A stretch of 36,122 nucleotides of DNA from Candidatus Thorarchaeota archaeon (GCA_016839605.1 JAEOTX010000170.1:1-36122); one strand, 5' to 3'; numbered from the stretch's first letter, positions 1 to 35,966 are shown. Program-made: numbers and translations. Notes: a model not told the origin generated them from the letters alone.

Positions 1-1037
1 ACACCGGCAGGCGTGATGAGTTTCACCTCGACATCACGACCTAGAAGAGATGCTCCTGCAAGCTCTGAGAGGCTTCTATCCAGTTCGTTGGGTGTCACAT
101 AGTACATTGTGCCTCCAGTAGCCTCAGGTAACAGACCCAGTGTCTTGAGTTCCATTGCTCCTCCAGATGCGATGCCTACAACATCAAGTGATGCACCTAT
201 CTTTCTGAACTCGTCTCCGAGATTCTCGTAAAACTTGGCCGCTGGAGTCACCTGGTACCCCTCAAGGGCGCCAATTCCCTCATTTGCTAGTCCATCCGTA
301 AGGAGGACAATTCGGCCAACCTCTCGGTGCTTAGCAATGGTATACGCCATTCCAACGGCGGGACCAAGTGCAGTTCCACCCTGGTCTCGCAGAGCAGCAA
401 CGTGGCGTTTCAGGTCTGATGACTTATCACCAACCTTCACCATCTTGATCTTGTCCAACAGGCGTTTTGTCGAGTTCTTGATATCATCAATATTCTGGAA
501 GGACTCTCTTGGGAGTTCGATAGCTTCTCCAGTCTCCAGGTTCCTGCAGACTACAGTACTCTCAAACTCAATTAGACCAAACATTGTGTCCGGAGTGTTG
601 GCTGCCAGACTGTCAATCGATGTGTTTAAGCTACGCTTGACAGCGGCTAAGTTCTCACCAGCCATGGATCCGGAAACATCTATCAGCGCTAAGAATGACC
701 GGCCGCCTGTCGAGATTGTTTCAGTACCGGTCTCTATCTCTTGTGGTGGCTTCACTACGAAGTCGGTATCATCGCCTGCGACGACAATCTCGCCTTCGAT
801 TACGTTCAGTGTACTACAGAATGGACAGACAAAGTGCTTTCCGACTTTGTCGTTCTCTTGTATCTGATCTACACTGAGAAGGAAGCCATTGCATTTGTGG
901 CAAGCAATTGGCTTACCAACAATCTTGGTAACGTCTCGTGCCAAGTCTCCAAATTCAACTCGCAGGACGTATGGGAGGTCTTTCATTACATCCTTTGATG
1001 AAGGAAAAGCCTCCGAAGTAGTTCTCAGCATAGGCAT
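1..1037 (-). CDS. Sec23/Sec24-like zinc finger + vWA domain protein (3' end runs off the window)
   Basis: Absent from the ORF track because there is no stop in the window. Manual translation from ATG 1037 gives MPMLRTTSEAF...KPIACHKCNGFLL...HFVCPFCSTLN (CxxC..CxxC Sec23/24-type Zn finger), then FLALIDVSGSM (MIDAS DxSxS), GGTALGPA and IVLLTDGLANEG. Confidence 0.8.
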   Translation of the reverse strand, partial: MPMLRTTSEAFPSSKDVMKDLPYVLRVEFGDLARDVTKIVGKPIACHKCNGFLLSVDQIQENDKVGKHFVCPFCSTLNVIEGEIVVAGDDTDFVVKPPQEIETGTETISTGGRSFLALIDVSGSMAGENLAAVKRSLNTSIDSLAANTPDTMFGLIEFESTVVCRNLETGEAIELPRESFQNIDDIKNSTKRLLDKIKMVKVGDKSSDLKRHVAALRDQGGTALGPAVGMAYTIAKHREVGRIVLLTDGLANEGIGALEGYQVTPAAKFYENLGDEFRKIGASLDVVGIASGGAMELKTLGLLPEATGGTMYYVTPNELDRSLSELAGASLLGRDVEVKLITPAG

Positions 1038-1147
1038 ATAATTCGACTCCAAAAGTCTTGGGGCTAGGTTCACATTTGCGGTATTAAACTCTTTTAGAAT
1101 TTCAAGCGCTTGCTTAGCACTTGGGAATGAAGTAAACCTTTAATGAT

Positions 1148-6367: not shown

Positions 6368-7080
6368 GTGATGAAGACAGCTCACCGTTCTGGGCTTCTC
6401 CGCCGTACATTCTCCTCACTGATGTACTTCAATTGGATAAGATTAAACCATGGAATGTTGATGTTGGCAAGCTTGTTGCTGGATTCATTCGTGAGATGAA
6501 GCGGCTTGGGGACATTGACTTCAGAATCTCTGGAAGTGCATTATATTCGGCTTCTGTCATCTTCATGAAGAAGACCCGTGAGCTTGTTGAGCTTGGAATT
6601 CTTCCTCCGGAATCAGTCGGTGACGATGATGAACTCGTTATTCCTCTAATTAGACCTCCATTCAGAGTAAGCAACCAACGGGTCACTCTTCAAGAATTGC
6701 TGATAGCGATGGATAGAATGCTCAGCAAAGATCCTCGTCCACGCCCTGTTCCTCGTAAGAAAAGGTATCGGCCCAGCATAGAACCTATGGATTTCAAAAT
6801 GGAAACAACACGGGCAGACGTGGAGGAGAACATAACTGAGGTCTACGATGACCTCTTGAAAATAATGGAGATTGGTGAAACGGCAAAGTTCGTTGATATT
6901 CTTATGAACAATACAAGAAGGGAGATTGTCCGTGTCTTCTTCGCCTTACTTCACCTCTATGGTCGTGCGTTCATTGACATCTGGATGGATGATGAGGATA
7001 TCATCTGGGTGAAGATGCTCACACCCCCGCCACCTTCGGAAGAGGAGGAAGAGATACATCCATCTATTGAAACGAAGTGA
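6364..7080 (+). CDS. scpA: Segregation/condensation protein A (kleisin)
   Basis: KPWNVDV...ALYSASVIFMKK N-terminal motif, C-terminal IVRVFFALLHL winged helix; overlaps the smc stop (ATGA). Confidence 0.9.
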   Translation: MSDEDSSPFWASPPYILLTDVLQLDKIKPWNVDVGKLVAGFIREMKRLGDIDFRISGSALYSASVIFMKKTRELVELGILPPESVGDDDELVIPLIRPPFRVSNQRVTLQELLIAMDRMLSKDPRPRPVPRKKRYRPSIEPMDFKMETTRADVEENITEVYDDLLKIMEIGETAKFVDILMNNTRREIVRVFFALLHLYGRAFIDIWMDDEDIIWVKMLTPPPPSEEEEEIHPSIETK

Positions 7081-7649
7081 TTTCCATGGATGATGACAAG
7101 GTGAAATTGGAAGCGGCTCTATATGTAGCAGGCAGGCCCATCTCAATAGAAGAACTGGCTGCTGTCATCGGGAAAGCTGAGTCTTCCACAAAACGGGTGC
7201 TGGAAGAGATTGGCCACGCGTACAACAAGCGAAAAGGAGCTCTTGAGGTTGTAGAGCTTCCTCGAGAGCGATGGGTGATGCAACTCAGACCCGAATTGAC
7301 CCCTCATGTTGCAAAGCTAATTCCAGGCGGACTCCTATCATTCGCCACACTTCAGACTCTGGTATATGTCGCCCTGAAGCAGCCCATCCTTCAATCAAAG
7401 CTTGTTTCTGAAAGGGGAACTCATTGCTATGACCATATCAAAGAACTGACTGAAAAGAAATTCATTGATGCCGTGCCTGAAGGGCGGAGTAAACTGCTAA
7501 AGACTACAACCCTCTTTGCTGATTACTTCGGTCTTGACCATGATCGAATCAAGCTCAAAGCGCAACTTCGTCATCAAATGAAGAAGATTCTACAGGATCA
7601 GCAAGAGCTTGAAGCCAGAGCGGACTTAGGATTTAATGCACGTACTTGA
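7077..7649 (+). CDS. scpB: SMC-Scp complex subunit ScpB (kite)
   Basis: LEAALYVAGRPIS, LQTLVYVALKQPI, TTTLFADYFGL motifs; overlaps the scpA stop. Confidence 0.93.
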   Translation: MISMDDDKVKLEAALYVAGRPISIEELAAVIGKAESSTKRVLEEIGHAYNKRKGALEVVELPRERWVMQLRPELTPHVAKLIPGGLLSFATLQTLVYVALKQPILQSKLVSERGTHCYDHIKELTEKKFIDAVPEGRSKLLKTTTLFADYFGLDHDRIKLKAQLRHQMKKILQDQQELEARADLGFNART

Positions 7650-25874: not shown

Positions 25875-26504
25875 TTGGACTACGCATATTCTGACGATGA
25901 AGGAACGCTTCTTGTGAAACTTGCAAGACAGACTGTTGACAGTTATGTGCTAGACAAGACTAAGCCCAGTCCTCCAGATGATGCACCTCCCAAATTATGG
26001 GAGAAGTCGGGCGTGTTTGTAACTCTCAACCTTCTGGAAGAGGGCCATGTTAGACTTAGGGGGTGTATTGGTCGTCCATATCCAACGCAACCATTGATAG
26101 AGGCCACAATTGATTCCGCTGTAGATTCTGCGGTAAATGACCCCCGCTTCAGGCCAGTGAGCCCAAATGAAATTGATTCTATCATCGTTGATCTAAGCGT
26201 TCTCACTCCTCCGCGCAAATTGGAATATGACAGCCCTGACGAGCTCTTCAATCTTGTGCAGGTTGGAAGAGATGGACTCATAGTCAGTAGAGGAATGATG
26301 CGTGGGCTTCTACTTCCGCAAGTCCCTGTGCAGTATGGATGGGACACGAAGACATTTTTGGAACACACTTGCCAAAAGGCAGGACTTCCGAGCGACCTAT
26401 GGCGAGCTCCTGATGTGGAGTTCATGTCATTTCGAGCCGAGATCTTTGGTGAAACTGCCCCCAGAGAGGAGATTGTAAGAAACCCAGAGCATCCCCGATG
26501 TTAG
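25875..26504 (+). CDS. AMMECR1-domain protein (TIGR00296-like)
   Basis: GVFVTL, LRGCIG, DPRF, GRDGL, GLLLPQV, CQKAGL. Start placed at TTG 25875, not 25575. Confidence 0.92.
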   Translation: MDYAYSDDEGTLLVKLARQTVDSYVLDKTKPSPPDDAPPKLWEKSGVFVTLNLLEEGHVRLRGCIGRPYPTQPLIEATIDSAVDSAVNDPRFRPVSPNEIDSIIVDLSVLTPPRKLEYDSPDELFNLVQVGRDGLIVSRGMMRGLLLPQVPVQYGWDTKTFLEHTCQKAGLPSDLWRAPDVEFMSFRAEIFGETAPREEIVRNPEHPRC

Positions 26505-27376
26505 AGGAGAATGATACCGTGAACGACTTGCCATCAGCTGTGATTGAAACCCTCAAGGAGTATTTGAAAGAAGATATCAGAACAGGAGACCTGACCTCCA
26601 ATGTTACAGTGCCTGACGATGCAATAGGATCTGCAACAGTCTATGCAAAGAGTAAGGCTGTACTGGCCGGAGTAAAGGAATTGACCGCCATAGCAGAACT
26701 CACAGGGCTTGATTACGAGGTTTTTGCCTTCGAGGGAAATTGGGTGGGACCGCAAGAGCCCATAGTGGGTCTGAGAGGGCTTGCACGCACTCTTCTGGGA
26801 GTGGAACGAGTCTGTCTCAACATCATCCAACGGATGAGTGGGATAGCAACAAAGACCTATAGAATGGTTCAAGCTGCAAGAGAAATGAACCCAAATGTAC
26901 GTGTGGCGGCCACAAGAAAAACAACTCCAGGCTTCAGATACTTCGAGAAGAGAGCAGTCCAGGTAGGCGGTGGAGACCCTCATCGTTATGCACTTGATGA
27001 CATGGTCTTGATCAAGAACAACCATATCGCTGTTGTTGGAGGAGCAGGTGATGCCGTCAAGGCTGCCAGAGAGGGGGTATCGTTTAGTAAGAAGATATCA
27101 TGTGAAGTTCGTACGCTTCAAGAGGCTATAGAGGCTATAGAAGCGGGTGCTGACATTGTACTGCTGGACAACTTCACTGCTCAAGATGTAGGGGGAGTCC
27201 ATGAGGTTCTTACTCAACGAGAGATGCGGCATAAAGTCTTGCTGGAGGCATCAGGAGGAATTAATGAGGACAATATCAAGGACTATGCGCAGAGTGGAGT
27301 GGACATCATCTCTTCTGGAGCATTGACTCACTCATACGACTCAGCAGACTTCAATATGCTCCTGTCATTTACATAG
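26498..27376 (+). CDS. nadC: Nicotinate-nucleotide diphosphorylase (carboxylating)
   Basis: EDIRTGDLTS, MSGIAT, ATRKTTPG, GGGDPHR, LIKNNH, LLDN, EASGGI, SSGALTH. Confidence 0.96.
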   Translation: MLEENDTVNDLPSAVIETLKEYLKEDIRTGDLTSNVTVPDDAIGSATVYAKSKAVLAGVKELTAIAELTGLDYEVFAFEGNWVGPQEPIVGLRGLARTLLGVERVCLNIIQRMSGIATKTYRMVQAAREMNPNVRVAATRKTTPGFRYFEKRAVQVGGGDPHRYALDDMVLIKNNHIAVVGGAGDAVKAAREGVSFSKKISCEVRTLQEAIEAIEAGADIVLLDNFTAQDVGGVHEVLTQREMRHKVLLEASGGINEDNIKDYAQSGVDIISSGALTHSYDSADFNMLLSFT

Positions 27377-27391: not shown

Positions 27392-27420
27392 TGGTGCCCC
27401 GACCGGGATTTGAACCCGGG
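27392..27420 (-). repeat. att-like duplication of the 3' 29 nt of tRNA-Glu (T-arm, acceptor strand, CCA)
   Basis: TGGTGCCCCGACCGGGATTTGAACCCGGG vs 35889-35917 TGGTGCCCCGGCCGGGATTCGAACCCGGG (27/29 identical). Confidence 0.92.
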
Positions 27421-27506
27421 ATTGTCATACAAAAACAGACAGATAAAACTAGAGGACTTCAAGATTGGTACAATAGAGAGGGATGAATTACTTATTTCGA
27501 ATAACG

Positions 27507-27591
27507 TGCAAGACTGGTGGTTTTGGAGAAACGGTCCAAAACGCAGCCCTCATAATGCTTATTTCGGCGAAAAGGGCTATAAAGAATGGCG
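27507..27591 (+). promoter_or_regulatory. CRISPR leader 1
   Basis: 27548-27591 is 41/44 identical to 34891-34934, with weaker similarity further upstream; contains CTTATTT and CGAAAAGGGCTATAAA (BRE/TATA-like). Confidence 0.85.
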
Positions 27592-27825
27592 GTATGAATC
27601 GAACTACAAGTAGGATTGAAGAAGGTAATAGAAGAACGGCAGGAAATCCGCAAGAGTGAGTATGAATCGAACTACAAGTAGGATTGAAGCTAGAACGTGT
27701 CGTCGTCGATTGCAGTTATCTGAACTGTATGAATCGAACTACATGTAGGATTGAAACTACACCCACACAATAACACCGACGACAGACGGCTCTCGCATGA
27801 ATCGAACTATATCTAGGATTAGGAT
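27592..27825 (+). CRISPR. CRISPR mini-array 1: 4 repeats (last degenerate), 3 spacers
   Basis: 31-nt consensus GTATGAATCGAACTACAWGTAGGATTGAAAC at 27592, 27660, 27727 and 27795; spacers of 37, 36 and 37 nt. Confidence 0.95.
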
Positions 27826-30272
27826 TGCGACACATTAAGACCCGTATCCGGTGAATAAACATCTTGATCTCTATTCATGTATATTATACCAAATAATAGA
27901 CGTCCCTCGTGGTCACAAACACTTTCTATCTTGCCTCTGAGGTCTTCATAATGCCTGCTGCTTAGATCAATGCTATATCTATAGAATGCAGAAGGTATGC
28001 TCAGCTTCTTCTCAATTAACTTGCTATCTATCTCGGTCAAAATTGATTCAGATTTATTGTCGCAGTTGATGAAAATCTGGCATGCAGACTCGTTTCTATC
28101 AATGAGTCTGAACTTTCGTCCAAGGTCATCCCACTCTAGATGTTCTGCATGATTGAGTGCCACATTCGTTACCTTTCGCTCCCGAATATCAACAAAATAC
28201 TGAGAGAGCCTTTCTCTTAGTTTCTCCTCACTGTATGAGTTTCCTCCCTGCTCTTGTAAGACCTCTCTGGTCATCTCAAGGTCTACTTCGTCATAGACAC
28301 TCTGTGCATACCCTCGATTCGTTTCAGGATCGAATACACATCTCACATTGACGATGCCAAGTTGTTCATGTTCCCAGTTTCTGTTACAGCGGCCTGCAAC
28401 CTGAATGATTGAGTCCAGTGGTGCTAGATCTCTAAAAGCGATGTCAAAAGAAACATCTACACCTGCCTCAATCACTTGAGTACAGACTAGGATGACACGC
28501 GACTTGCGTGATTTGAGTGACTCTCTAAGTGAAACAATTGTCTGCCTTCTATGGACTGGAGCAACCCAACCTGAGAGGAAATAGATTATATCATTTGGAC
28601 CAAGGCAGCTCTGAATTTTCGAGTACACAGAGGCAGCAGCAGCTTTTGTGTTTAGCACCACCAACACATTCGAGGCGGGGTTCTCTCCTAGCCCCTCAAT
28701 GACCTCCTGAGTGAACTCTTCAAGAGGTATACGGGTCGAGTCATATTGCACCTGGTACCTATTGACTCCGGTCCCATCCACAATTGTAGTTAGCATTTCC
28801 TCAGGTTTGAGAATTGTAGGCATAGTTGCAGTTGCAAGCAGAACATGACAGCCAAGGTTTCTAGTGAGTGCTCGTATCGTTTCAGCAATGATGTCCCAAT
28901 ATTTTACAGGGAAGGATTGTACCTCGTCCATCAGGATTATCGAGCGTGCAAGCCTATTGAAGCGGATAGAGTCCCGCTTGGATGAACCCAAAATAGTTTC
29001 ACATAGCCGCACTGTTGTCGTGATGATGATATCAGAACGCCACCTGTCCACAAAGACACTGATGCTCTTTGGGTCGTAATACTCACCTTCAGAACGCCAC
29101 TTCATCTCGCTCAACGAGTGATGCACCGTGAGGAGGGCATCATTCTCCTCATGGTCTATGTCAAAGATGTCCCTGACGAGGTTCTCAACTTGTTCTGCAA
29201 TAGAGATGAATGGTAATGCATAGATGATTCTTGGTGTGAAACTCTCTTGTCTGCGGATTTTTTCACGTATCCTGATTGCGTATGACATCATTGCAAGCGT
29301 CTTTCCAGACCCTGTTGGTGCCTGTAGGGATAAGATTCGAGAAGTTGAACTTAATGCCTCATTTGTGAGATGATATGTGTCCTCTCTCAAGTGTTTGATG
29401 CGTTCCTCTCGTTCATTGGTTGGCGACCGCCAGACACCACTCTGGATTTGTCGCGTCCGATAGAGGTCAATGACATTCTCCTTGATTGTGCTCCTAGGCA
29501 AATCACGCACCACTGAGTGTTTGCCAGTATCTCCAAGAGAGAATCCCGCGTCGTACTCGTCCATGTCACATAGAATGGAGTAGAGAAATCGGTAGAGAAT
29601 GTAATCATCAAGTGATGAGTTCTTTCGATATACTTCAAGGACGTCTTCAATGTCATCTAAAAGACACAGCAAACCGTTATGGTCGAGTCCTAGGAGTTCA
29701 TTGACCGAATCTAATATTGCAAAACTGCTCTGTGGGAAGACAGAATCTGTCAATTGTGGGTCCTCTTTGAAAAGCTCTCTCAGAAGGCTAAGAATCTGAG
29801 ATGTATTGTCGACCTCCTCTCGCAGCATTTCGATTAATGACACTGCTGAGTCCTTTGTTGGCAATGGATTGATGGCCTGAGGGGAGTGATGTTGAAGGAT
29901 TGCTAACATTGCAAATCCAGATAGACAGAATCTGACATCTTCAGGGATATCTGAAAACAACTGCCTTGTTGCCAAGAACCCGAGGAGTGAACCAACATGT
30001 GTATGATAAGACAGAGGAATTTCAGCAGTAGGAATGATTTCATCATTCACCTTGCGCTGAAAGACTGGGGAAGACTTGCCAAAGTCATGGCAATACGCGA
30101 TTGTTTGGACAAGTTGTTCGAGTCGCTTTTGTGTTTCCCTATCTCCAAGAAATGATTCAAGTCTTTCATAATGTGGATGAACATCTTTGAGAATTGCTAG
30201 GGTTCCAGATGCAACTACATCGTTATGTGTCCTAAGCGATTGATGCGGTCGTGCCTTCGACCTGTCCATCAA
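27819..30272 (-). CDS. cas3: CRISPR-associated helicase/nuclease Cas3 (HD + SF2)
   Basis: HD motif CHDFGK, QHH, D-x-D; APTGSGKT, MDEVQ, TAT, TQVIEAGVD, QVAGRCNR. Confidence 0.96.
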   Translation of the reverse strand: MMDRSKARPHQSLRTHNDVVASGTLAILKDVHPHYERLESFLGDRETQKRLEQLVQTIAYCHDFGKSSPVFQRKVNDEIIPTAEIPLSYHTHVGSLLGFLATRQLFSDIPEDVRFCLSGFAMLAILQHHSPQAINPLPTKDSAVSLIEMLREEVDNTSQILSLLRELFKEDPQLTDSVFPQSSFAILDSVNELLGLDHNGLLCLLDDIEDVLEVYRKNSSLDDYILYRFLYSILCDMDEYDAGFSLGDTGKHSVVRDLPRSTIKENVIDLYRTRQIQSGVWRSPTNEREERIKHLREDTYHLTNEALSSTSRILSLQAPTGSGKTLAMMSYAIRIREKIRRQESFTPRIIYALPFISIAEQVENLVRDIFDIDHEENDALLTVHHSLSEMKWRSEGEYYDPKSISVFVDRWRSDIIITTTVRLCETILGSSKRDSIRFNRLARSIILMDEVQSFPVKYWDIIAETIRALTRNLGCHVLLATATMPTILKPEEMLTTIVDGTGVNRYQVQYDSTRIPLEEFTQEVIEGLGENPASNVLVVLNTKAAAASVYSKIQSCLGPNDIIYFLSGWVAPVHRRQTIVSLRESLKSRKSRVILVCTQVIEAGVDVSFDIAFRDLAPLDSIIQVAGRCNRNWEHEQLGIVNVRCVFDPETNRGYAQSVYDEVDLEMTREVLQEQGGNSYSEEKLRERLSQYFVDIRERKVTNVALNHAEHLEWDDLGRKFRLIDRNESACQIFINCDNKSESILTEIDSKLIEKKLSIPSAFYRYSIDLSSRHYEDLRGKIESVCDHEGRLLFGIIYMNRDQDVYSPDTGLNVSQS

Positions 30273-31087
30273 GAACCACCTAAGGGACCAACGGGAAGAG
30301 GTACCACAAACGTATCTGGTGTGGCTTCAACAAGAGCAACAACACCATGTTTCTTCGTCTTTACTACGATTGGACGTTCTTGATCTTTGATTTGATATGC
30401 AACGGAATCAACCAAGTCGGCACTACCAAATGGATGGACATAATCCCCGTATAATTCGACAGGGGTAGTCTTCATTGACATTGGAACACCATGAACAAGT
30501 ACAAAGTCTCCAGTCATTCTCATACGACGATCAACTGAGAGAGAAACAATGCTTGAAACAGAGTGTTCTCCTGAATCAAGAGGTTTGTATTGGCTCCGAG
30601 AGATGAACTCCACCTCAGCTAGCATATTTGCATGTCCAAGATACGGGGGGTATGTGAAGAGATGGTTTCGTAGTGCATTCTCCAATTCATCCATCATATC
30701 ATCATCATTCAAGCCGACATAAAATCTGAATCTTGGTTCAACAAGAAGGTCAAGTCGCTGCTGAGTGTTCATACCACGTTGTGTTTCAGGGTCTGAGGGT
30801 ATTGGTATCATCATCTCTCCGATTCTAGTCGGAAACTTGGTCTGTGTGAAATTAACAGTCATTCCAAGCTTATGACTTGGTTGTAGAACCTCTACCGCGA
30901 TAACTGAGTTTCTAAATGGATTTGCCAGATCCCAATAGGAGTTCCTCGGAAGACCAAGGATTGCTCCAATGAGTCCAATGATTGCAGTCCTAGGTGGAAA
31001 TGGAAAGGTAAGAGCACTTCGCGTGGTTTCAGGAGTCTTGAAGGTTGCATATCTTCCTGATACATCGAAGACCAAGAACTCGGTCAT
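30269..31087 (-). CDS. cas5: Type I-B Cas5 (Cas5h)
   Basis: LVFDVSGRYATFK...LTFPFPPRTAIIGLIGAILG; YPPYLG. Confidence 0.93.
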   Translation of the reverse strand: MTEFLVFDVSGRYATFKTPETTRSALTFPFPPRTAIIGLIGAILGLPRNSYWDLANPFRNSVIAVEVLQPSHKLGMTVNFTQTKFPTRIGEMMIPIPSDPETQRGMNTQQRLDLLVEPRFRFYVGLNDDDMMDELENALRNHLFTYPPYLGHANMLAEVEFISRSQYKPLDSGEHSVSSIVSLSVDRRMRMTGDFVLVHGVPMSMKTTPVELYGDYVHPFGSADLVDSVAYQIKDQERPIVVKTKKHGVVALVEATPDTFVVPLPVGPLGGS

Positions 31088-31098
31088 CTCGCAGACTC

Positions 31099-32079
31099 CT
31101 ACATACCTATCATACCAGTGCGTATCCCTGTCTTTGATAGGAACCCTTCAAGGTCTGTTGATTGCTCATCCTCGTACCTGAAGGTTGTTTGTCCGTCAGA
31201 GTAGTACTCAATCCGATCAATGTGTTCGATGTTCTCCTCAAGCCGGGTCACCAAGGCGGTGATATCGATGATAGCATCATCGATTCTTAAGACTCCATCC
31301 TCCTTGTCAATCATAACATGACGCCATAAATCACCAATCTGGAACTTTGCCTTCTTTGATACAGCTGAAACAATAAAGCGGGGTATCTGTTGAGATTTAG
31401 ACCTAGTATTGAGAGCCTTAGTTCCCCACCACAGTCCTCGATATACCTCTAACATATCCTCTTCCGTCATTCCTGTTATCTTTGCACTACGTTCACAAGC
31501 TATACCATGGAAAAGGATTAAGGAGTAATCCACAACATGAAACTCACCAAGAGTGCCAGCGCCTTTCTCCTCTCCAGAGGATAGACTTGCACTCAGTCCA
31601 TATGTTATAACATTGGGTTTGTTCAATGATCTACCAATGTTGAACTGAACAGGACCAACAATTGATGTATTAGCGGACTCAAGAGTCACTGCAGCACCAA
31701 AACATCGCACATCAATGAACTCCTTTGGAAACTTGTCCATGATTGTCTTTCGTACTTTCTTCCCCTCACTCTTGCTAATCTTTTTGAGTCCGAGTTTTTC
31801 GAGTGCAAGATGAGCCATAGACATTACATAGCCCTCGGGACTGTATTTTTGCTTCACTAGGATATCCATATGCTTCGTACCATGATGTACAGTATCCCAG
31901 TAATCGCGTATTGTACGTTTCAACCTTAGGTCTGTTACAATATTATAGCCCTCATCATCCACCCTAGGTAGGTTTCCACTATCAGGATCACCATTTGGGT
32001 TAGAGTCCTTAACCTCATAGGCAAAGAGTATCTCTCGCCTGTTTTCCAGTTCGCCGTCTGTTTTTCGTTTCTTACTCAT
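31099..32079 (-). CDS. cas7: Type I-B Cas7 (Csh2)
   Basis: NRREILFAYEVKDSNPNGDP...PR...VTDLRLKRTIRDY; IDVRCFGA; GPVQF; TRSK. Confidence 0.95.
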   Translation of the reverse strand: MSKKRKTDGELENRREILFAYEVKDSNPNGDPDSGNLPRVDDEGYNIVTDLRLKRTIRDYWDTVHHGTKHMDILVKQKYSPEGYVMSMAHLALEKLGLKKISKSEGKKVRKTIMDKFPKEFIDVRCFGAAVTLESANTSIVGPVQFNIGRSLNKPNVITYGLSASLSSGEEKGAGTLGEFHVVDYSLILFHGIACERSAKITGMTEEDMLEVYRGLWWGTKALNTRSKSQQIPRFIVSAVSKKAKFQIGDLWRHVMIDKEDGVLRIDDAIIDITALVTRLEENIEHIDRIEYYSDGQTTFRYEDEQSTDLEGFLSKTGIRTGMIGM

Positions 32080-32494
32080 TTCTTTCACCTCTTACTCTGT
32101 TGAAAGAATCATATCCATATACAAATGCAATCTGCAGCTCCTCTGGTCTACTAGTCCACTCTGCTTGAGTTAGAAGCTCAGATGCAAATGCTCTATGTTT
32201 CCAACTCACTCTTCCCTCTGCTCTGCTTTGAACTTTGAATATCAGAGAGCTGGCTTCTGCCATCATGCTCTCCAGTCTTTTTCGGTCAAGATGGTCGAAT
32301 GACCTTGCTACAGCTTTTGCAAGCCCTTTTGTTCGGAACTCAGTTTCCTGAAGGTAGACTGCATAACTCAAGAATGCACCAGTTGCGCACGCCGCTCTCA
32401 CATCTGTCTTCTTATAGAAATGCGAATTGAAAGACTTGCTCATGTCCTCAATCACATTGTCAACAATTGATTTCTCGTCTTGATTTTCTGTCAT
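32072..32494 (-). CDS. cas11: Cas11-like small subunit (equivalent to the C-terminal helical domain of Cas8b/Csh1)
   Basis: 140-aa helical ORF between cas8b and cas7 with G-x6-Q (TGAFLSYAVYLQ) and W..E..F..G (EWTSRPEELQIAFVYG) motifs typical of the Cas8b tail; TAATG overlap with cas8b. Confidence 0.7.
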   Translation of the reverse strand: MTENQDEKSIVDNVIEDMSKSFNSHFYKKTDVRAACATGAFLSYAVYLQETEFRTKGLAKAVARSFDHLDRKRLESMMAEASSLIFKVQSRAEGRVSWKHRAFASELLTQAEWTSRPEELQIAFVYGYDSFNRVRGERNE

Positions 32495-33942
32495 TATTTT
32501 TTACCCCCTAGTAAATCATGATTGTAAAGAGTGTCGTACAGGGTTAGAAGGTCTCGCACTCTGCGTCCCACGAATCTCTGAGTCTGTAACTTTCTCTTGC
32601 CATCCTTCTCACGTATCATGTCCAGAAACATGTGTCTGATAGTGTCCTCTCTGTCATCAGGTCGATACGTAGCTCCAGCTCTTAGAAGTAATCGTCTATC
32701 CACACGTGTGCCAAGAAAGAGTGCGCCAAGGAATGCTGGGAGGACCTTTGGTCCCATGATGTGAAACAGTCGCTGAGTCTTGATTTCAGTCATTCTTGAT
32801 AGACCAAACCCACGCGAGATATCTTCCAGAATGGATGTAATCTCCCTCAAGCGTGTTCCAGGAAAGAAATATGAACCAACCATATTCTTCATCCTGGATT
32901 GGGCTGACTCGTAATAGAAGGCCACAGTATACGACAACCTGTGAGGGAGAACTGATAGGGCCTCAGCAAGGTCTACATTTTCCCGTCGACGTTCGACCTT
33001 TTCCAAAGCGTCCTTGATAGATTGAACAGCACGAGCTTGTCCTCTTCTTGAAACATTGATGAGTGCTCTTACGCACTGTTCCAGGCTTGTCTTGTTCTCT
33101 GTATTAGGAATAATCTGATATCTGACAGGAGTCGTTCCACGACCTCTTCGTACAGAGTAGGCATAGAACGTCATCTCAGACTCAATTATGTTCAAACCAA
33201 CGGTGGCCTGAGTAGTACACTCCTCACAGAGGGGAAACTGCGTAGAATTATTGGGATTGAACCCAATAGAATATCCTACCTGATCGAGTGTGAACATCTT
33301 CGCTGCTGCAAAGCTTGAAACTGAATTCCTTCTCTTACCACATCCATGACACACGACTCCTGAGTCCTCAACAATGGAGCTACTAGTGAATGAATTGACA
33401 AAGAGTTGTCTTAGCTGTTCCAATTCGCCAGGCCAACGATAAGCGCCATCTTCAGGAGCATCAAGTATTCTTAGAATCAGCCACTTTGGTGCGGTATTGG
33501 AAGTGAATTCGTTGGATATGAACAAGTATTCGGAAACAACATCATAGATCCTTTCAAGATTATGCGATAGCCATTGATTCAGCTGTGACACTAGAACGTC
33601 ATTCGTCCCTCTTGTTCGAGTCACAATCCGTCCTAGCTGACTCTTTTTCTTTAGGTTCATAGATTGATTCTCGTCATCCCTTGCCGCCTCCCACTTACGA
33701 AAATCAATTGGATGACAGATGGATGGGAGGGAGTTGCCAGGGGCATATCCAAGAGCATAGAGGGCCTTTTCTTCGTCTTTGAACTCGTAAGACTTGGGAA
33801 CCAAAGGTGAGTCGTTATCCCATATATTGCAGTCTAACACAGCCAGTAGTTTTATGCGGCCTTTATAGCTCTGTTCTATCAGGGCACTATAATAATCTGT
33901 ATCCACAAGTGCTCCAATACGTACAAGCTGTTGAATGATCAT
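32494..33942 (-). CDS. cas8b: Type I-B large subunit Cas8b (Csh1/TM1802-like), lacking the C-terminal domain
   Basis: MIIQQLVRIG start, CHGCG...FTLDQVGY...FPLCEEC Zn finger, YQIIP; position between cas6 and cas7. Confidence 0.8.
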   Translation of the reverse strand: MIIQQLVRIGALVDTDYYSALIEQSYKGRIKLLAVLDCNIWDNDSPLVPKSYEFKDEEKALYALGYAPGNSLPSICHPIDFRKWEAARDDENQSMNLKKKSQLGRIVTRTRGTNDVLVSQLNQWLSHNLERIYDVVSEYLFISNEFTSNTAPKWLILRILDAPEDGAYRWPGELEQLRQLFVNSFTSSSIVEDSGVVCHGCGKRRNSVSSFAAAKMFTLDQVGYSIGFNPNNSTQFPLCEECTTQATVGLNIIESEMTFYAYSVRRGRGTTPVRYQIIPNTENKTSLEQCVRALINVSRRGQARAVQSIKDALEKVERRRENVDLAEALSVLPHRLSYTVAFYYESAQSRMKNMVGSYFFPGTRLREITSILEDISRGFGLSRMTEIKTQRLFHIMGPKVLPAFLGALFLGTRVDRRLLLRAGATYRPDDREDTIRHMFLDMIREKDGKRKLQTQRFVGRRVRDLLTLYDTLYNHDLLGGKK

Positions 33943-34703
33943 CTCACAGTCCCCTTAAGATGTTCTAAGGTCTGAATCGGAATGCCATCCAGAATTGACC
34001 GGACCATTCCGAAACCCATGCTGTTCTTCTCACCCAAGCCGCAGTCATATGCGAAGTCAATGAGCTGCGGGTCGCCTCTCAGTCTGATTTTGTAATAGTA
34101 GGAGCGGTGCCAGATGTCCACGATGCGTACCATTTTCCGCTGAACATCCCAAATCGACACAACTTCAAGGTCACCAGGTTCTTCCTTCTTGAACTCTGAG
34201 TACTTCCTCCTTAGTTTCTCTACAAGCAGCTCTGCATAATCCATATCGTCTGGTCCAATCTCCCATTGTTTGGTCTGTCCGTCCTTCTGGATGATTGTCC
34301 TCACGAGCGTGGGTGACATTGAGATTAACGTGTCCTCACCTCTACTGTTGGAATACTCATAGGGCTCGGAAACAGATAAGACTCTGAAGGGAACTCCCTG
34401 AATGCTGATTGAATCAACATCATTCAGAGATGAGATCATCACATCTAACAGGTTATTGTCAGGTGTGCTATACCAAAGAGTCGCGCCCCCAAGGGCTTTT
34501 ATCCCATTCTTCCGTGTCTGTATCGAATCGATGTATAGCCGAGAGAATGAGAAGAATTTGTAAGATTTCTGATCGTGAAGAGCGTCATATTCTGTCCCTT
34601 TGAGCAAGCTAAACAGAGCTGATGCTACTGAATGCTGATAATTGTAGTCGATGACACACGGTCCAGATGTCATCTCTGGAATAATGACCAAACGAATTCT
34701 CGT
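33939..34703 (-). CDS. cas6: CRISPR endoribonuclease Cas6 (start ACG 34703 or TTG 34691)
   Basis: YNYQH, LHD..YKFFSFS, SP motif, C-terminal G-loop YDCGLGEKNSMGFGMV. Confidence 0.95.
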   Translation of the reverse strand, partial: TRIRLVIIPEMTSGPCVIDYNYQHSVASALFSLLKGTEYDALHDQKSYKFFSFSRLYIDSIQTRKNGIKALGGATLWYSTPDNNLLDVMISSLNDVDSISIQGVPFRVLSVSEPYEYSNSRGEDTLISMSPTLVRTIIQKDGQTKQWEIGPDDMDYAELLVEKLRRKYSEFKKEEPGDLEVVSIWDVQRKMVRIVDIWHRSYYYKIRLRGDPQLIDFAYDCGLGEKNSMGFGMVRSILDGIPIQTLEHLKGTVR

Positions 34704-34849
34704 TTCCTCTACCCCCAGTACCTCCTATGAGCGTGCGTGAGTGACGCGCATGTAGCTAGAACTCTGTGCGCTAATAAGAGGTTCTCTCAAATTCTCTGAG
34801 AAATGTTCACTCTTTAGATAACCAAAGACTGTGAACACTCTGAGGTTCT

Positions 34850-34934
34850 TGCAGAACTGGAGGTTTTCAGAAACTGCTTGAAGAAAGGGGCCTCATAATG
34901 CTTATTTTGGCGAAAAGGGCTATAAGAAATGGCG
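34850..34934 (+). promoter_or_regulatory. CRISPR leader 2, divergent from cas6
   Basis: Near-copy of leader 1. Confidence 0.85.
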
Positions 34935-35100
34935 GTATGAATCGAACTACAAGTAGGATTGAAACAAGTATTGCCCAGAGGCCCAACCCGCTAGATTTAC
35001 CTGTATGAATCGAACTACATGTAGGATTGAAACCACATCGGCGGGGATGCCAACACAGCAGGAACTGTGGTATGAATCGAACTATAAATGGGGTTGAAAC
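34935..35100 (+). CRISPR. CRISPR mini-array 2: 3 repeats (last degenerate), 2 spacers
   Basis: Same repeat at 34935, 35003 and 35070; spacers of 37 and 36 nt. Confidence 0.95.
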
Positions 35101-35142
35101 CCCTATGTAGAAAGCCAATCAGTAACTCGGTCATTACCAAAG

Positions 35143-35877
35143 ATGAGGAATGGAACTCGTGATTTATGGATGCCCACAGTAATCGATAAGATGATTCGGT
35201 TAGCTGGAATTCCACCTGGTGATCGAACAATTTTGAACTATGGTTTGCCAGAACTTAGCATGACTTGGTCAATACCTGCAATCTGTGAATACTTCAAACA
35301 AATGATTGCACAAGAGAGTAAAATCGATTCCAATGGTCGCATTGTTTGGGGCCGCACTAATGCTTTATATGCTGGAAAGAAGACTCAAGCCTACAACTTC
35401 AAATCACAAATTTCTGTAGATGCTTACAATTTCCTGAAGACATCTGGACAAATGAGGGAGTTAAAGAAAGCCAAAGGTTACGAGAAAATCAGAGAGAGAT
35501 ACATAGCTTTGGGACGACTTGCTGATTTGAAGAATAACAGACACTCAAAAGAATCAGTTATAGCTGCGGAATTGATTGAGGTCATCGAACACAATCGAAA
35601 TAGGTTAATTGATGATAAAACTAATCTTCTGAAGAAACTCGGATTTTCTGTTAGTGTTGCACCACGTAGACTTTCCTACCACAAGAACAGTGAGAGAGTC
35701 ACCGTAAGCTGGAGTGCTAACATCAATAGTATTTCCTCTAAAATCATGGTTGCACTAGTTATGTTTCCAAGACATCCTACTAAATCTCTGCGCTTGAAAA
35801 ACTGGTTACAAAGCAGGTCGAAGGATGAAATCGACACTGCAATTGGGAATCTCAGGAAAAGAGGATTCACATTATAG
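35143..35877 (+). CDS. Hypothetical basic protein, LAGLIDADG-like fold, probably N-terminally truncated
   Basis: GIPPGDRT..N..LP followed by EYFKQMIAQESKI resembles a degenerate second LAGLIDADG motif; later LLKKLGFSV. Visibly AT-richer than host genes. Confidence 0.5.
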   Translation: MRNGTRDLWMPTVIDKMIRLAGIPPGDRTILNYGLPELSMTWSIPAICEYFKQMIAQESKIDSNGRIVWGRTNALYAGKKTQAYNFKSQISVDAYNFLKTSGQMRELKKAKGYEKIRERYIALGRLADLKNNRHSKESVIAAELIEVIEHNRNRLIDDKTNLLKKLGFSVSVAPRRLSYHKNSERVTVSWSANINSISSKIMVALVMFPRHPTKSLRLKNWLQSRSKDEIDTAIGNLRKRGFTL

Positions 35878-35888
35878 AATAAAGAAAA

Positions 35889-35966
35889 TGGTGCCCCGGC
35901 CGGGATTCGAACCCGGGTCGTTGACTCGAAAGGCCAAAATGCTGGGCCGGGCTACACTACCGGGGC
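35889..35966 (-). tRNA. tRNA-Glu (anticodon TTC), CCA encoded, intronless
   Basis: GCCCCGG/CCGGGGC acceptor stem, anticodon arm TTGGC-CTTTCGA-GTCAA, T-arm CCGGG-TTCGAAT-CCCGG, ACCA end; CTTAATAA box upstream. Confidence 0.98.

What the first reader, a model, noticed from the sequence alone, without database searches (positions are those of the whole stretch)
27392..35966. tRNA-Glu-integrated, integrase-less island that is essentially only an adaptation-less type I-B CRISPR-Cas module
Seen: a 29-bp copy of the tRNA-Glu 3' end lies 8,497 bp from the tRNA. Between them are only cas6-cas8b-cas11-cas7-cas5-cas3, two tiny arrays (5 spacers in total) and one orphan ORF; there is no cas1/cas2/cas4, integrase or Tn7 gene. 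Cas3 keeps its HD and helicase motifs, so it looks cleavage-competent, unlike CAST systems. Established: tRNA 3'-end duplications mark tyrosine-integrase insertion, and MGE-borne Cas modules with mini-arrays act in inter-element competition. Inference: a compact defence cassette mobilised in trans (satellite-like), or a domesticated remnant of a larger element, in an Asgard archaeon.
Basis: partly seen in the sequence, partly recalled or inferred. Interest (0 to 1): 0.8.

Follow-up and report, generated by a model that had tools for sequence, protein, structure and literature searches.

The report
CRISPR cargo on integrase-free tRNA island
An 8.5-kb piece of foreign DNA holding only a CRISPR "search-and-destroy" module sits in the glutamate-tRNA gene of an Asgard archaeon. 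Its one "orphan" gene is the broken half of a DNA-cutting (LAGLIDADG) enzyme that marks a whole family of islands entering tRNA genes without an integrase, so this looks like a stranded copy of that element carrying an immune system as cargo.

Summary
The 29-bp copy of the tRNA-Glu 3' end, the six type I-B genes (cas6-cas8b-cas11-cas7-cas5-cas3), two mini-arrays with five spacers and one extra ORF are all where stated. The nearest sister species (G001) has the exact empty site, so window 27421-35888 is an 8,468-bp insertion. No cas1, cas2, cas4 or tyrosine integrase was found in the island or in the 80%-complete MAG.

The "orphan ORF" is not an orphan. It is the C-terminal 244 residues of a multicopy HTH + two-motif LAGLIDADG protein family. 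Full-length members are the last gene, or the only gene, of other islands at this same nadC/tRNA-Glu site, and others abut the 3' ends of other tRNAs. The window copy lacks the HTH part and the first catalytic motif.

My reading: the island belongs to an integrase-free, homing-endonuclease-type element that brings a replacement tRNA end. The interference-only I-B cassette is its cargo, the nuclease is broken, and this copy is probably stranded. Mobilisation by a helper integrase is not supported.

The insertion and the gene identities are shown. The homing mechanism is inferred. Other stretches of this genome and other genomes in this scan gave the same nuclease family. I found no paper describing it.

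The parts
26498..27376 (+). nadC (quinolinate phosphoribosyltransferase); conserved chromosomal left flank
   Evidence: TIGR00078 at 301.6 bits, cut-off 198.4. The CBS-DHOase-AMMECR1-nadC order is shared with relatives.
27392..27420 (-). attL: displaced native 3' end of tRNA-Glu (T-arm, acceptor strand, CCA), 29 nt
   Evidence: 29/29 identical to the tRNA-Glu 3' end of sister species G001 and at the same distance from nadC. 27/29 identical to the working copy.
27421..27547 (.). 127 bp of island DNA with no recognised feature
   Evidence: The overlapping 67-aa ORF has no family match. No similarity to other islands at this site.
27548..27591 (+). CRISPR leader core, copy 1
   Evidence: 80-nt repeat (leader plus first repeat), 93% identical to 34891-34970. 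The core is conserved upstream of the array in metagenome relative L039.
27592..27825 (+). CRISPR array 1: 4 repeats (the last degenerate, overlapping the cas3 stop) and 3 spacers (27623-27659, 27691-27726, 27758-27794)
   Evidence: Repeats end ATTGAA(A/G)N on the + strand, as in type I-B.
27819..30272 (-). cas3 (HD nuclease + SF2 helicase), 817 aa
   Evidence: TIGR01587 at 126 bits (cut-off 102) and TIGR01596 at 53.5 bits (cut-off 43). HD and helicase motifs I, II and VI intact.
30269..31087 (-). cas5b
   Evidence: TIGR02592 at 123.2 bits, cut-off 97.
31099..32088 (-). cas7 (Csh2)
   Evidence: TIGR02590 at 194.1 bits, cut-off 171.55.
32072..32494 (-). cas11-like small subunit, 140 aa
   Evidence: Weak match to the C-terminal part of Cas8b/Csh1 (TIGR02591, E 4e-4). 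Kept as a separate 140-aa ORF, 77-81% identical, in G057 and L039.
32494..33942 (-). cas8b, 482 aa
   Evidence: PF09484 at 60.9 bits, cut-off 25.1.
33939..34691 (-). cas6
   Evidence: TIGR01877 at 111.9 bits, cut-off 58.65.
34891..34934 (+). CRISPR leader core, copy 2; diverges from the cas6 promoter region
34935..35100 (+). CRISPR array 2: 3 repeats (the last degenerate) and 2 spacers (34966-35002, 35034-35069)
35143..35877 (+). 5'-truncated LAGLIDADG nuclease gene (the 'orphan ORF'). Homology starts at 35131. It covers only the second LAGLIDADG domain and the C-terminal part.
   Evidence: 53-55% identical to residues 256-503 of P0009 and 306-544 of P0010. 242 family hits, nearly all as the C-terminus of 450-1,300-aa proteins. 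AF2 model pLDDT 92. The best 22 PDB matches are all LAGLIDADG enzymes or WhiA, led by PI-PfuI at Z 11.3. Motif 1 is absent.
35889..35966 (-). working tRNA-Glu(UUC). Its 3' 29 nt (35889-35917, attR) differ at 2 positions from the displaced native end and begin 11 nt after the nuclease stop codon.
   Evidence: Other islands at this site show the same layout: stop codon, about 11 nt, then the tRNA 3' end.

Best explanation
Shown:
- Window 27421-35888 is an 8,468-bp insertion into the 3' part of the chromosomal tRNA-Glu(UUC) gene just downstream of nadC.
- The insert supplies the tRNA's present 3' end. The original end is left as a 29-nt stub beside nadC.
- The insert holds a compact type I-B cassette: leader and mini-array, cas3-cas5-cas7-cas11-cas8b-cas6, then a second leader and mini-array.
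- Abutting the tRNA is the 3' half of a gene for an HTH + two-motif LAGLIDADG protein.
- Full-length members of that protein family are the constant gene, sometimes the only gene, of other inserts at this same site. Others lie against the 3' ends of other tRNA genes.

Inferred:
- The island belongs to an integrase-free element family that spreads by homing. The nuclease cuts the intact tRNA gene of a naive chromosome. Repair from an occupied allele then copies in the nuclease gene, any cargo and a replacement tRNA end.
- The I-B cassette is cargo. It probably came from a related Asgard element: its nearest relatives lie among unknown genes in metagenome contigs, again without cas1, cas2 or cas4.
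- In this copy the nuclease gene has lost its HTH region and first catalytic motif. The island can therefore no longer move by itself and is a stranded, possibly domesticated, defence cassette.
- If expressed, Cas6 would cut the five-spacer transcripts, Cascade (Cas8b, Cas11, Cas7, Cas5) would bind matching DNA and Cas3 would degrade it. New spacers cannot be added unless an adaptation module exists in the unassembled 20% of the genome.
For: 1. Exact empty site in sister species G001. The displaced stub is 29/29 identical to G001's tRNA end, while the working end differs at 2 positions. This is the pattern reported for endonuclease 'mobile ORFs' that carry a replacement gene end (PMC3630166).
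2. The ORF equals the C-terminal half of P0009 and P0010, at 53-55% identity.
3. P0010 is the only gene of a 1,953-bp insert at the same nadC/tRNA-Glu site. That insert is absent from related genome G018.
4. P0009 closes a 4.7-kb insert at the same site, with an internal third att copy.
5. In contig L091 a still shorter remnant at the same site is 80% identical in DNA to window 35462-35893, while the host flanks are only 65-68% identical.
6. The family occurs in 53 of 87 genomes of the order, with up to 11 matches per genome. In at least 9 of 28 loci read, the reverse complement of a tRNA 3' end starts 6-47 nt after the stop codon. ARAGORN calls tRNA-Lys, -Ser and -Arg among them.
7. LAGLIDADG fold: Z 11.3, 10.0 and 8.8. 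The acidic residue of both motifs is conserved across the family, and motif 1 is missing from the window copy.
8. No tyrosine integrase (PF00589) in the MAG and none in any island at this site.
9. Close Cas8b homologues occur in 2 of 87 genomes of the order and 2 of 400 of the phylum. The same six-gene operon with arrays of 14 or more and about 26 repeats appears in G057 and in contig L039, with no adjacent cas1, cas2 or cas4.
10. All six cas ORFs are intact and the Cas3 motifs are present.
Against: - No nuclease activity, target site or homing event has been shown for any member. The link to mobility is positional only.
- The working tRNA is intact, so the presumed target must be protected by its two substitutions, by changes further into the tRNA, or not at all. 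This was not tested.
- About half of the family loci read showed no adjacent tRNA end.
- The order of events is unknown. The cassette may have arrived with the element or entered an already resident island.
- The truncated ORF is still open over 244 codons, which could mean a retained function rather than decay.
- The MAG is 80% complete, so cas1, cas2, cas4 or an integrase may be unassembled. A scan note reports a divergent Cas1-like gene elsewhere in this genome that PF01867 did not pick up.
- The contig ends 156 bp after the tRNA, and the junctions were not checked with reads.
Confidence: 0.68

Rival explanations
1. A satellite-like cassette is integrated and excised in trans by a tyrosine integrase encoded by a helper element that targets tRNA-Glu.
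For: The layout (intact tRNA, island, direct repeat of the tRNA 3' end) is the one tyrosine integrases leave. The MAG lacks 20% of the genome.
Against: - PF00589 finds no integrase anywhere in the MAG, while 14 of 14 control genomes match.
- Four other inserts at this site (L044/L045, L046, L091) also lack an integrase, yet all carry the LAGLIDADG gene or its remnant beside the tRNA.
- The duplicated length differs between islands, about 24 to 29 nt.
Confidence: 0.1
2. Same element family, different order of events. A small nuclease-only island already sat in tRNA-Glu. The I-B cassette, bounded by its own two leader-array units, entered it later by illegitimate or repeat-mediated recombination and destroyed the 5' half of the nuclease gene. 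The nuclease therefore never carried the cassette.
For: - The nuclease homology starts only about 30 bp after the last degenerate repeat of array 2.
- The cassette ends in leader-array units on both sides, as in its relatives.
- The site accumulates successive inserts: a third att copy in L046 and nested pieces in L091.
Against: - No trace of the 5' half of the nuclease gene lies on the other side of the cassette.
- No relative shows the cassette beside an intact nuclease gene or in any other tRNA island, so neither order is documented.
Confidence: 0.2
3. An ancestral, vertically inherited CRISPR locus that relatives lost by precise deletion; or an assembly chimera joined at the tRNA repeat.
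For: Several relatives' contigs break within about 1-2 kb downstream of nadC. The island lies at a contig end.
Against: - The empty sites are exact. The stub is identical to the sister's functional tRNA end.
- The module is present in 2 of 400 genomes of the phylum.
- Both flanks are chromosomal and adjacent in G001, so a chimera would need two independent false joins at a 29-bp repeat.
Confidence: 0.03

Closest known systems
[quoted passage not shown]
   Same: A type I-B interference module without adaptation genes, carried on an integrated mobile element in an archaeal chromosome and spread horizontally.
   Different: - There the carrier is a recognisable provirus, and a complete I-B system on a co-resident megaplasmid can supply spacers.
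- Here the carrier has no viral genes and no integrase, only a nuclease remnant.
- No adaptation module was found in the MAG, and the arrays hold 3 and 2 spacers.
Mobile endonuclease ORFs (mORFs) of fungal mitochondria that carry a replacement 3' end of the invaded gene: Allomyces atp6; Glomus atp6, atp9, cox2 and nad3 (PMC3630166)
   Same: - The order is gene core, foreign replacement end, LAGLIDADG endonuclease gene, displaced native end.
- The native end matches the sister species, while the working end is the divergent one.
   Different: - The target here is a tRNA gene in an archaeal chromosome.
- The nuclease is fused to HTH domains and converges on the tRNA.
- Kilobases of cargo, a whole CRISPR-Cas operon, lie between the nuclease gene and the displaced end.
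- Endonuclease activity is untested here.
tRNA-integrating genomic islands and proviruses with tyrosine integrases (bacterial and archaeal)
   Same: Insertion in the T-arm-to-3'-end part of a tRNA gene, a direct repeat of that part, variable cargo, and repeated use of one site.
   Different: No integrase gene in this island, in the other four islands at the same site, or in the MAG.
Monomeric two-motif archaeal LAGLIDADG homing endonucleases: I-DmoI, I-Tsp061I, and the endonuclease domain of PI-PfuI
   Same: The fold of the retained domain (Z 7.8-11.3). Full-length family members have two motifs with conserved acidic residues.
   Different: - Free-standing, not in an intron or intein.
- Long N-terminal HTH extensions.
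- The window copy has only the second domain.
CRISPR-associated transposons (Tn7-like elements with type I-F or I-B modules)
   Same: An adaptation-less type I module with a short array on a mobile element.
   Different: Cas3 is present and looks intact. No tnsA, tnsB, tnsC or tniQ genes. The insertion is inside a tRNA gene and not downstream of a guide-matched site.

Membership tests
Type I-B CRISPR-Cas (Csh/Hmari-type) | Cas8b large subunit | tested here: met
   PF09484 at 60.9 bits, cut-off 25.1. The NCBIfam equivalog scores below its cut-off.
Type I-B CRISPR-Cas (Csh/Hmari-type) | Cas7 (Csh2) and Cas5b | tested here: met
   TIGR02590 at 194.1 (cut-off 171.55). TIGR02592 at 123.2 (cut-off 97).
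Type I-B CRISPR-Cas (Csh/Hmari-type) | Cas3 with HD nuclease and helicase | tested here: met
   TIGR01587 and TIGR01596 score above their cut-offs. Motifs read in the sequence.
Type I-B CRISPR-Cas (Csh/Hmari-type) | Cas6 and a CRISPR array whose repeats end in an ATTGAAAC-type handle | tested here: met
   TIGR01877 at 111.9. Seven repeats in two arrays.
Type I-B CRISPR-Cas (Csh/Hmari-type) | Adaptation module cas1-cas2-cas4 | tested here: not met
   PF01867, PF09827 and PF01930 give no match in the MAG. tblastn with the Cas1, Cas2 and Cas4 of G057 finds nothing. The MAG is 80% complete. This makes the system an interference-only I-B variant, not a different type.
Tyrosine-integrase tRNA island | Direct repeat of the tRNA 3' part bounding the insert, with an empty site in relatives | tested here: met
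Tyrosine-integrase tRNA island | Integrase gene of the tyrosine recombinase family in the island | tested here: not met
   No PF00589 match in the island ORFs or in the MAG. None in the related islands.
LAGLIDADG homing endonuclease | LAGLIDADG alpha-beta-beta-alpha-beta-beta-alpha core fold | tested here: met
   AF2 model pLDDT 92. PI-PfuI Z 11.3, rmsd 3.1 over 132 residues. TliVMA Z 10.0. I-CreI Z 8.8. The top 22 rows are all of this fold. Foldseek alone was not significant.
LAGLIDADG homing endonuclease | Two motifs, each with a catalytic acidic residue | tested here: not met
   Full-length relatives have both: SD[CG]H in motif 1 and Q[ED]G in motif 2. The window ORF starts after motif 1 and keeps only motif 2, as AQES. 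It is therefore a fragment of a member, not a whole enzyme.
LAGLIDADG homing endonuclease | Site-specific double-strand cleavage of the insert-free allele | not testable with these tools
   Needs biochemistry.
CRISPR-associated transposon (CAST) | Tn7-type transposition genes (tnsA/B/C, tniQ) and loss of Cas3 | tested here: not met
   Every island ORF of 60 aa or more was scanned and none matched a transposase family. Cas3 is present and intact.
Provirus-borne CRISPR-Cas | Viral hallmark genes in the same element | tested here: not met
   The island has no room for them: six cas genes, two arrays and the nuclease remnant fill all but about 0.5 kb of it.

The most novel reading that the evidence does not exclude
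An undescribed class of archaeal mobile element uses an HTH-LAGLIDADG nuclease instead of an integrase to home into tRNA genes, re-supplying the tRNA end it displaces. This class can carry whole defence systems between Asgard lineages. The island here would be the first case of a CRISPR-Cas interference module moved in this way, caught after its nuclease decayed. A bolder version: the retained half-nuclease, or the mini-arrays, still serve the element by guarding the tRNA-Glu site against rival elements.
Probability: 0.45. Interest if true: 0.8.

Novelty: new variant of a known kind. Interest (0 to 1): 0.68.

Why it matters
Mobile elements that carry CRISPR-Cas without an adaptation module are known from plasmids, viruses, Tn7-like transposons and haloarchaeal proviruses. 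Here the carrier appears to be of a different kind. It is an integrase-free island tied to a homing-type nuclease, and it repairs the tRNA gene it enters.

If the mechanism holds, it would:
- explain why tRNA-flanked islands in Asgard genomes lack integrases;
- offer a selective reason for the odd introns and stubs seen in their tRNA genes.

It also yields simple experiments: a nuclease to purify, a defined 78-nt candidate target, and natural empty and occupied alleles.

Tried and rejected
- Spacer targets: no match in the MAG with up to 9 mismatches. No match in IMG/VR with 26-nt seed patterns for all five spacers. No match in the 87 genomes of the order. The best candidate, 21 of 22 nt of spacer 2 in G004 and G008, has 12 mismatches over the full spacer.
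- Other arrays: no other CRISPR array in the MAG by a k-mer spacing scan.
- Cas8b in genome contigs by the search for related loci: nothing confirmed.
- Single-sequence AlphaFold of the ORF: unusable, pLDDT 44. Foldseek against the PDB on the good model: no row below E 0.09. VIA-align was needed.
- Families: Pfam, NCBIfam and PHROGs give nothing for the ORF or for full-length P0009 and P0010.
- SSV-type split integrase: rejected. The ORF ends with its own stop codon 11 nt before the att core, and no matching N-terminal piece lies at the other island end.
- Helper nuclease in the same genome: the three other family copies (C150, C207, C125) are only 25-34% identical and not next to a tRNA-Glu.
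- The third 29-mer-like site on C205 is the 3' end of an intron-bearing tRNA-Glu(CUC), not another att site.
- Flanks of the nearest cas relative (L039): no homologues in this MAG and no Pfam or PHROG families, so its carrier stays unknown.
- Papers: no paper found on LAGLIDADG-linked tRNA islands in archaea.

Full report
**1. Observation**

ARAGORN and Rfam place one tRNA-Glu(UUC) at 35889-35966 on the - strand. Its 3' 29 nt recur at 27392-27420 in the same orientation with 27/29 identity, 8,497 bp away.

Between the two copies lie six - strand genes. Pfam and NCBIfam identify them as cas3, cas5b, cas7 (Csh2), a cas11-like small ORF, cas8b and cas6. Cas7 and Cas5b exceed the curated type I-B cut-offs.

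Two short arrays flank the operon and are read on the + strand. Array 1 has four repeats and three spacers, array 2 has three repeats and two spacers. Each follows a copy of the same leader core. That core is also conserved in front of the array of a metagenome relative.

Cas3 keeps its HD motif and helicase motifs I, II and VI. The left neighbour is nadC.

The window is a whole contig of an 80%-complete MAG and ends 156 bp past the tRNA. The rest of the contig is ordinary chromosome: SMC, succinate dehydrogenase, fumarase, NFACT, DHOase and AMMECR1. It also holds a Sec23/24-trunk protein, which fits an Asgard host.

**2. It is an insertion**

I searched 40 relatives with NadC and fetched the loci. 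In most of them tRNA-Glu lies about 20 bp after nadC on the opposite strand, followed by tRNA-Met.

In the closest species, G001 (NadC 96% identical), the window's left and right flanks are contiguous. L002 1454-3013 matches window 27420-25861 at 90%. L002 1249-1489 matches window 36122-35883 at 95%. The two alignments overlap only in the att core. Window 27421-35888 (8,468 bp) is therefore extra DNA.

The stub beside nadC is 29/29 identical to G001's functional tRNA end. The end now used by the tRNA differs at two positions. The stub is thus the displaced native end, and the insert brought the working end. One exchange within the last 9 nt of the repeat explains both copies; this step is inference.

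**3. The cas module is rare and travels**

Close Cas8b homologues occur in only 2 of 87 genomes of the order and 2 of 400 of the phylum.
- The other genome, G057, is in a different genus. It has the same six-gene operon (64-77% identity) followed by an array of at least 14 repeats that runs off an 8-kb contig. G057 also has cas4-cas1-cas2 with a second type I system on another contig.
- In the 5.8-billion-protein collection the nearest Cas8b (72%) lies on a 24.5-kb metagenome contig (L039). That contig carries the same operon and about 26 repeats. It shows no cas1, cas2 or cas4 in the 17 kb read. Its neighbours match no Pfam or PHROG family and have no homologue in this MAG.

An operon without adjacent adaptation genes is therefore a trait of this small I-B clade. 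What is special here is the tiny arrays, together with the absence of cas1, cas2 and cas4 from the whole MAG. No second array exists in the MAG.

**4. The 'orphan ORF'**

The 244-aa ORF at 35143-35877 has no Pfam or NCBIfam match and no close homologue by word search. An exhaustive HMMER search found 242 relatives. In almost all of them the match is the C-terminal 230-240 residues of a protein of 450-1,300 aa.

With an alignment of 45 of these, AlphaFold gave a confident model (pLDDT 92). VIA-align placed 22 LAGLIDADG enzymes or WhiA at the top:
- PI-PfuI, Z 11.3
- TliVMA intein endonuclease, Z 10.0
- I-CreI, Z 8.8
- I-DmoI, Z 7.8

A language-model search with full-length P0010 also returned LAGLIDADG clusters.

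An alignment of the region upstream shows a first motif (ARhIGxxVSD[CG]H) and a second motif (xQ[ED]G), each with a conserved acidic residue. Some members carry HTH domains before these motifs. The window ORF begins just after motif 1, at residue 256 of P0009. It is half a nuclease. No trace of the missing half lies elsewhere in the window.

**5. The family marks islands at this very site**

- *L044/L045.* The nearest full-length member, P0010 (546 aa), lies in an NCBI assembly. The order is nadC, a degenerate 29-nt tRNA stub, P0010, about 11 nt, then tRNA-Glu. Against the related genome G018 this is a clean 1,953-bp insertion. It holds only that gene, the new tRNA end and a 31-nt insert in the tRNA at the junction.
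- *L046.* P0009 (503 aa) closes a 4.7-kb insert at the same site behind SnoaL and LRR genes, with a third att copy inside.
- *L091.* In this 86-kb contig the same site holds a still shorter remnant. It is 80% identical in DNA to window 35462-35893, while the flanks are only 65-68% identical. The element is more alike than its hosts.

Across the order the family is multicopy: 53 of 87 genomes, with up to 11 matches each. In at least 9 of the 28 loci I read, the reverse complement of a tRNA 3' end starts 6-47 nt after the stop codon. tRNA-Lys, -Ser and -Arg are called by ARAGORN. None of these islands, nor the MAG, has a tyrosine integrase.

**6. Mechanism (inferred)**

The order 'gene core, foreign replacement end, LAGLIDADG gene, displaced native end that matches the sister species' is that of the endonuclease mobile ORFs of fungal mitochondria. 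According to the paper I read (PMC3630166), the endonuclease has been shown biochemically to drive the mobility of such an element.

I therefore read the window island as a member of an integrase-free, homing-type element family. The I-B cassette is its cargo, and it is now immobile because the nuclease gene is truncated. The other family copies in this MAG are only 25-34% identical, so a helper is not evident.

Three points remain open:
- whether the cassette rode in with the element or entered a resident island later;
- whether the still-open 244-codon fragment has a function;
- whether the module is expressed.

No spacer target was found, so its present role is untested.

**7. Comparison and novelty**

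The closest described case for the cargo is the proviral, adaptation-less I-B of haloarchaea (PMC12596717). For the carrier, the closest are the fungal mORFs (PMC3630166). I found no paper on LAGLIDADG-linked tRNA islands in archaea or on Asgard CRISPR modules in such islands.

Other agents of this scan reported the same nuclease family at tRNA-Trp and rps19 in this genome and at tRNAs in other Asgard genomes. I reached it independently from this locus, and I list those notes. I file the finding as a new variant of a known kind, namely a mobile-element-borne, adaptation-less CRISPR-Cas. The carrier itself may be a new kind of element.

Noticed in passing
L021 3195-3255 and 4496-4602 (G009); same layout in G014, G015, G011: In a subclade of the genus, a different 1.3-kb insert fills the nadC/tRNA-Glu site: one DUF362 gene, with no nuclease. 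The tRNA-Glu there carries a 28-nt insert in the T-loop, and the degenerate stub beside nadC contains a copy of that insert too.
   Followed up: partly
L044 5019-5125; L091 11358-11464: tRNA-Glu genes next to these nuclease islands carry an extra stretch of about 30 nt exactly at the point where the duplicated 29-mer ends. In L044 it is part of the inserted DNA. It could shield the tRNA gene from the nuclease.
   Followed up: partly
L046 2365-2393, about 2876-2902 and 7056-7084: Three copies of the tRNA-Glu 3' end occur in one locus, so at least two successive inserts are stacked at the same site.
   Followed up: partly
G000 contig C205:36960-37035 (L034): tRNA-Glu(CUC) with a long intron near its 5' end. 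ARAGORN misses it or miscalls it as tRNA-Arg. ARAGORN finds only 13 tRNAs in the whole MAG.
   Followed up: partly
whole MAG G000: No PF00589 tyrosine recombinase at all, not even a XerA-type one, although all 14 control genomes match. This may reflect incompleteness or a real trait of the lineage.
   Followed up: no
G004 (L027 14689-15987), G006 (L023), G008 (L008), G020 (L028): Further relatives have 1.1-3.3 kb of unidentified DNA between nadC and tRNA-Glu, or a contig break there. The site is a hotspot with many occupancy states.
   Followed up: no
L051, L059, L066, L073-L076 (downstream of the nuclease stop codon): In a subgroup of the nuclease family, a conserved small gene follows the nuclease gene in place of the tRNA end. 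Its N-terminus is similar across genomes. In L073 and L074 a tRNA-Asn lies 0.5-0.7 kb away; L064, which lacks this gene, also has one at that distance.
   Followed up: no
window 27548-27627 and 34891-34970: Leader plus first repeat is duplicated at 93% identity on both sides of the cas operon in direct orientation. Recombination between the two copies could delete the whole operon.
   Followed up: no
window 3-1073 (-): Sec23/Sec24 trunk + vWA protein (PF04811, 51.5 bits) at the contig start. This is a eukaryote-signature protein.
   Followed up: partly
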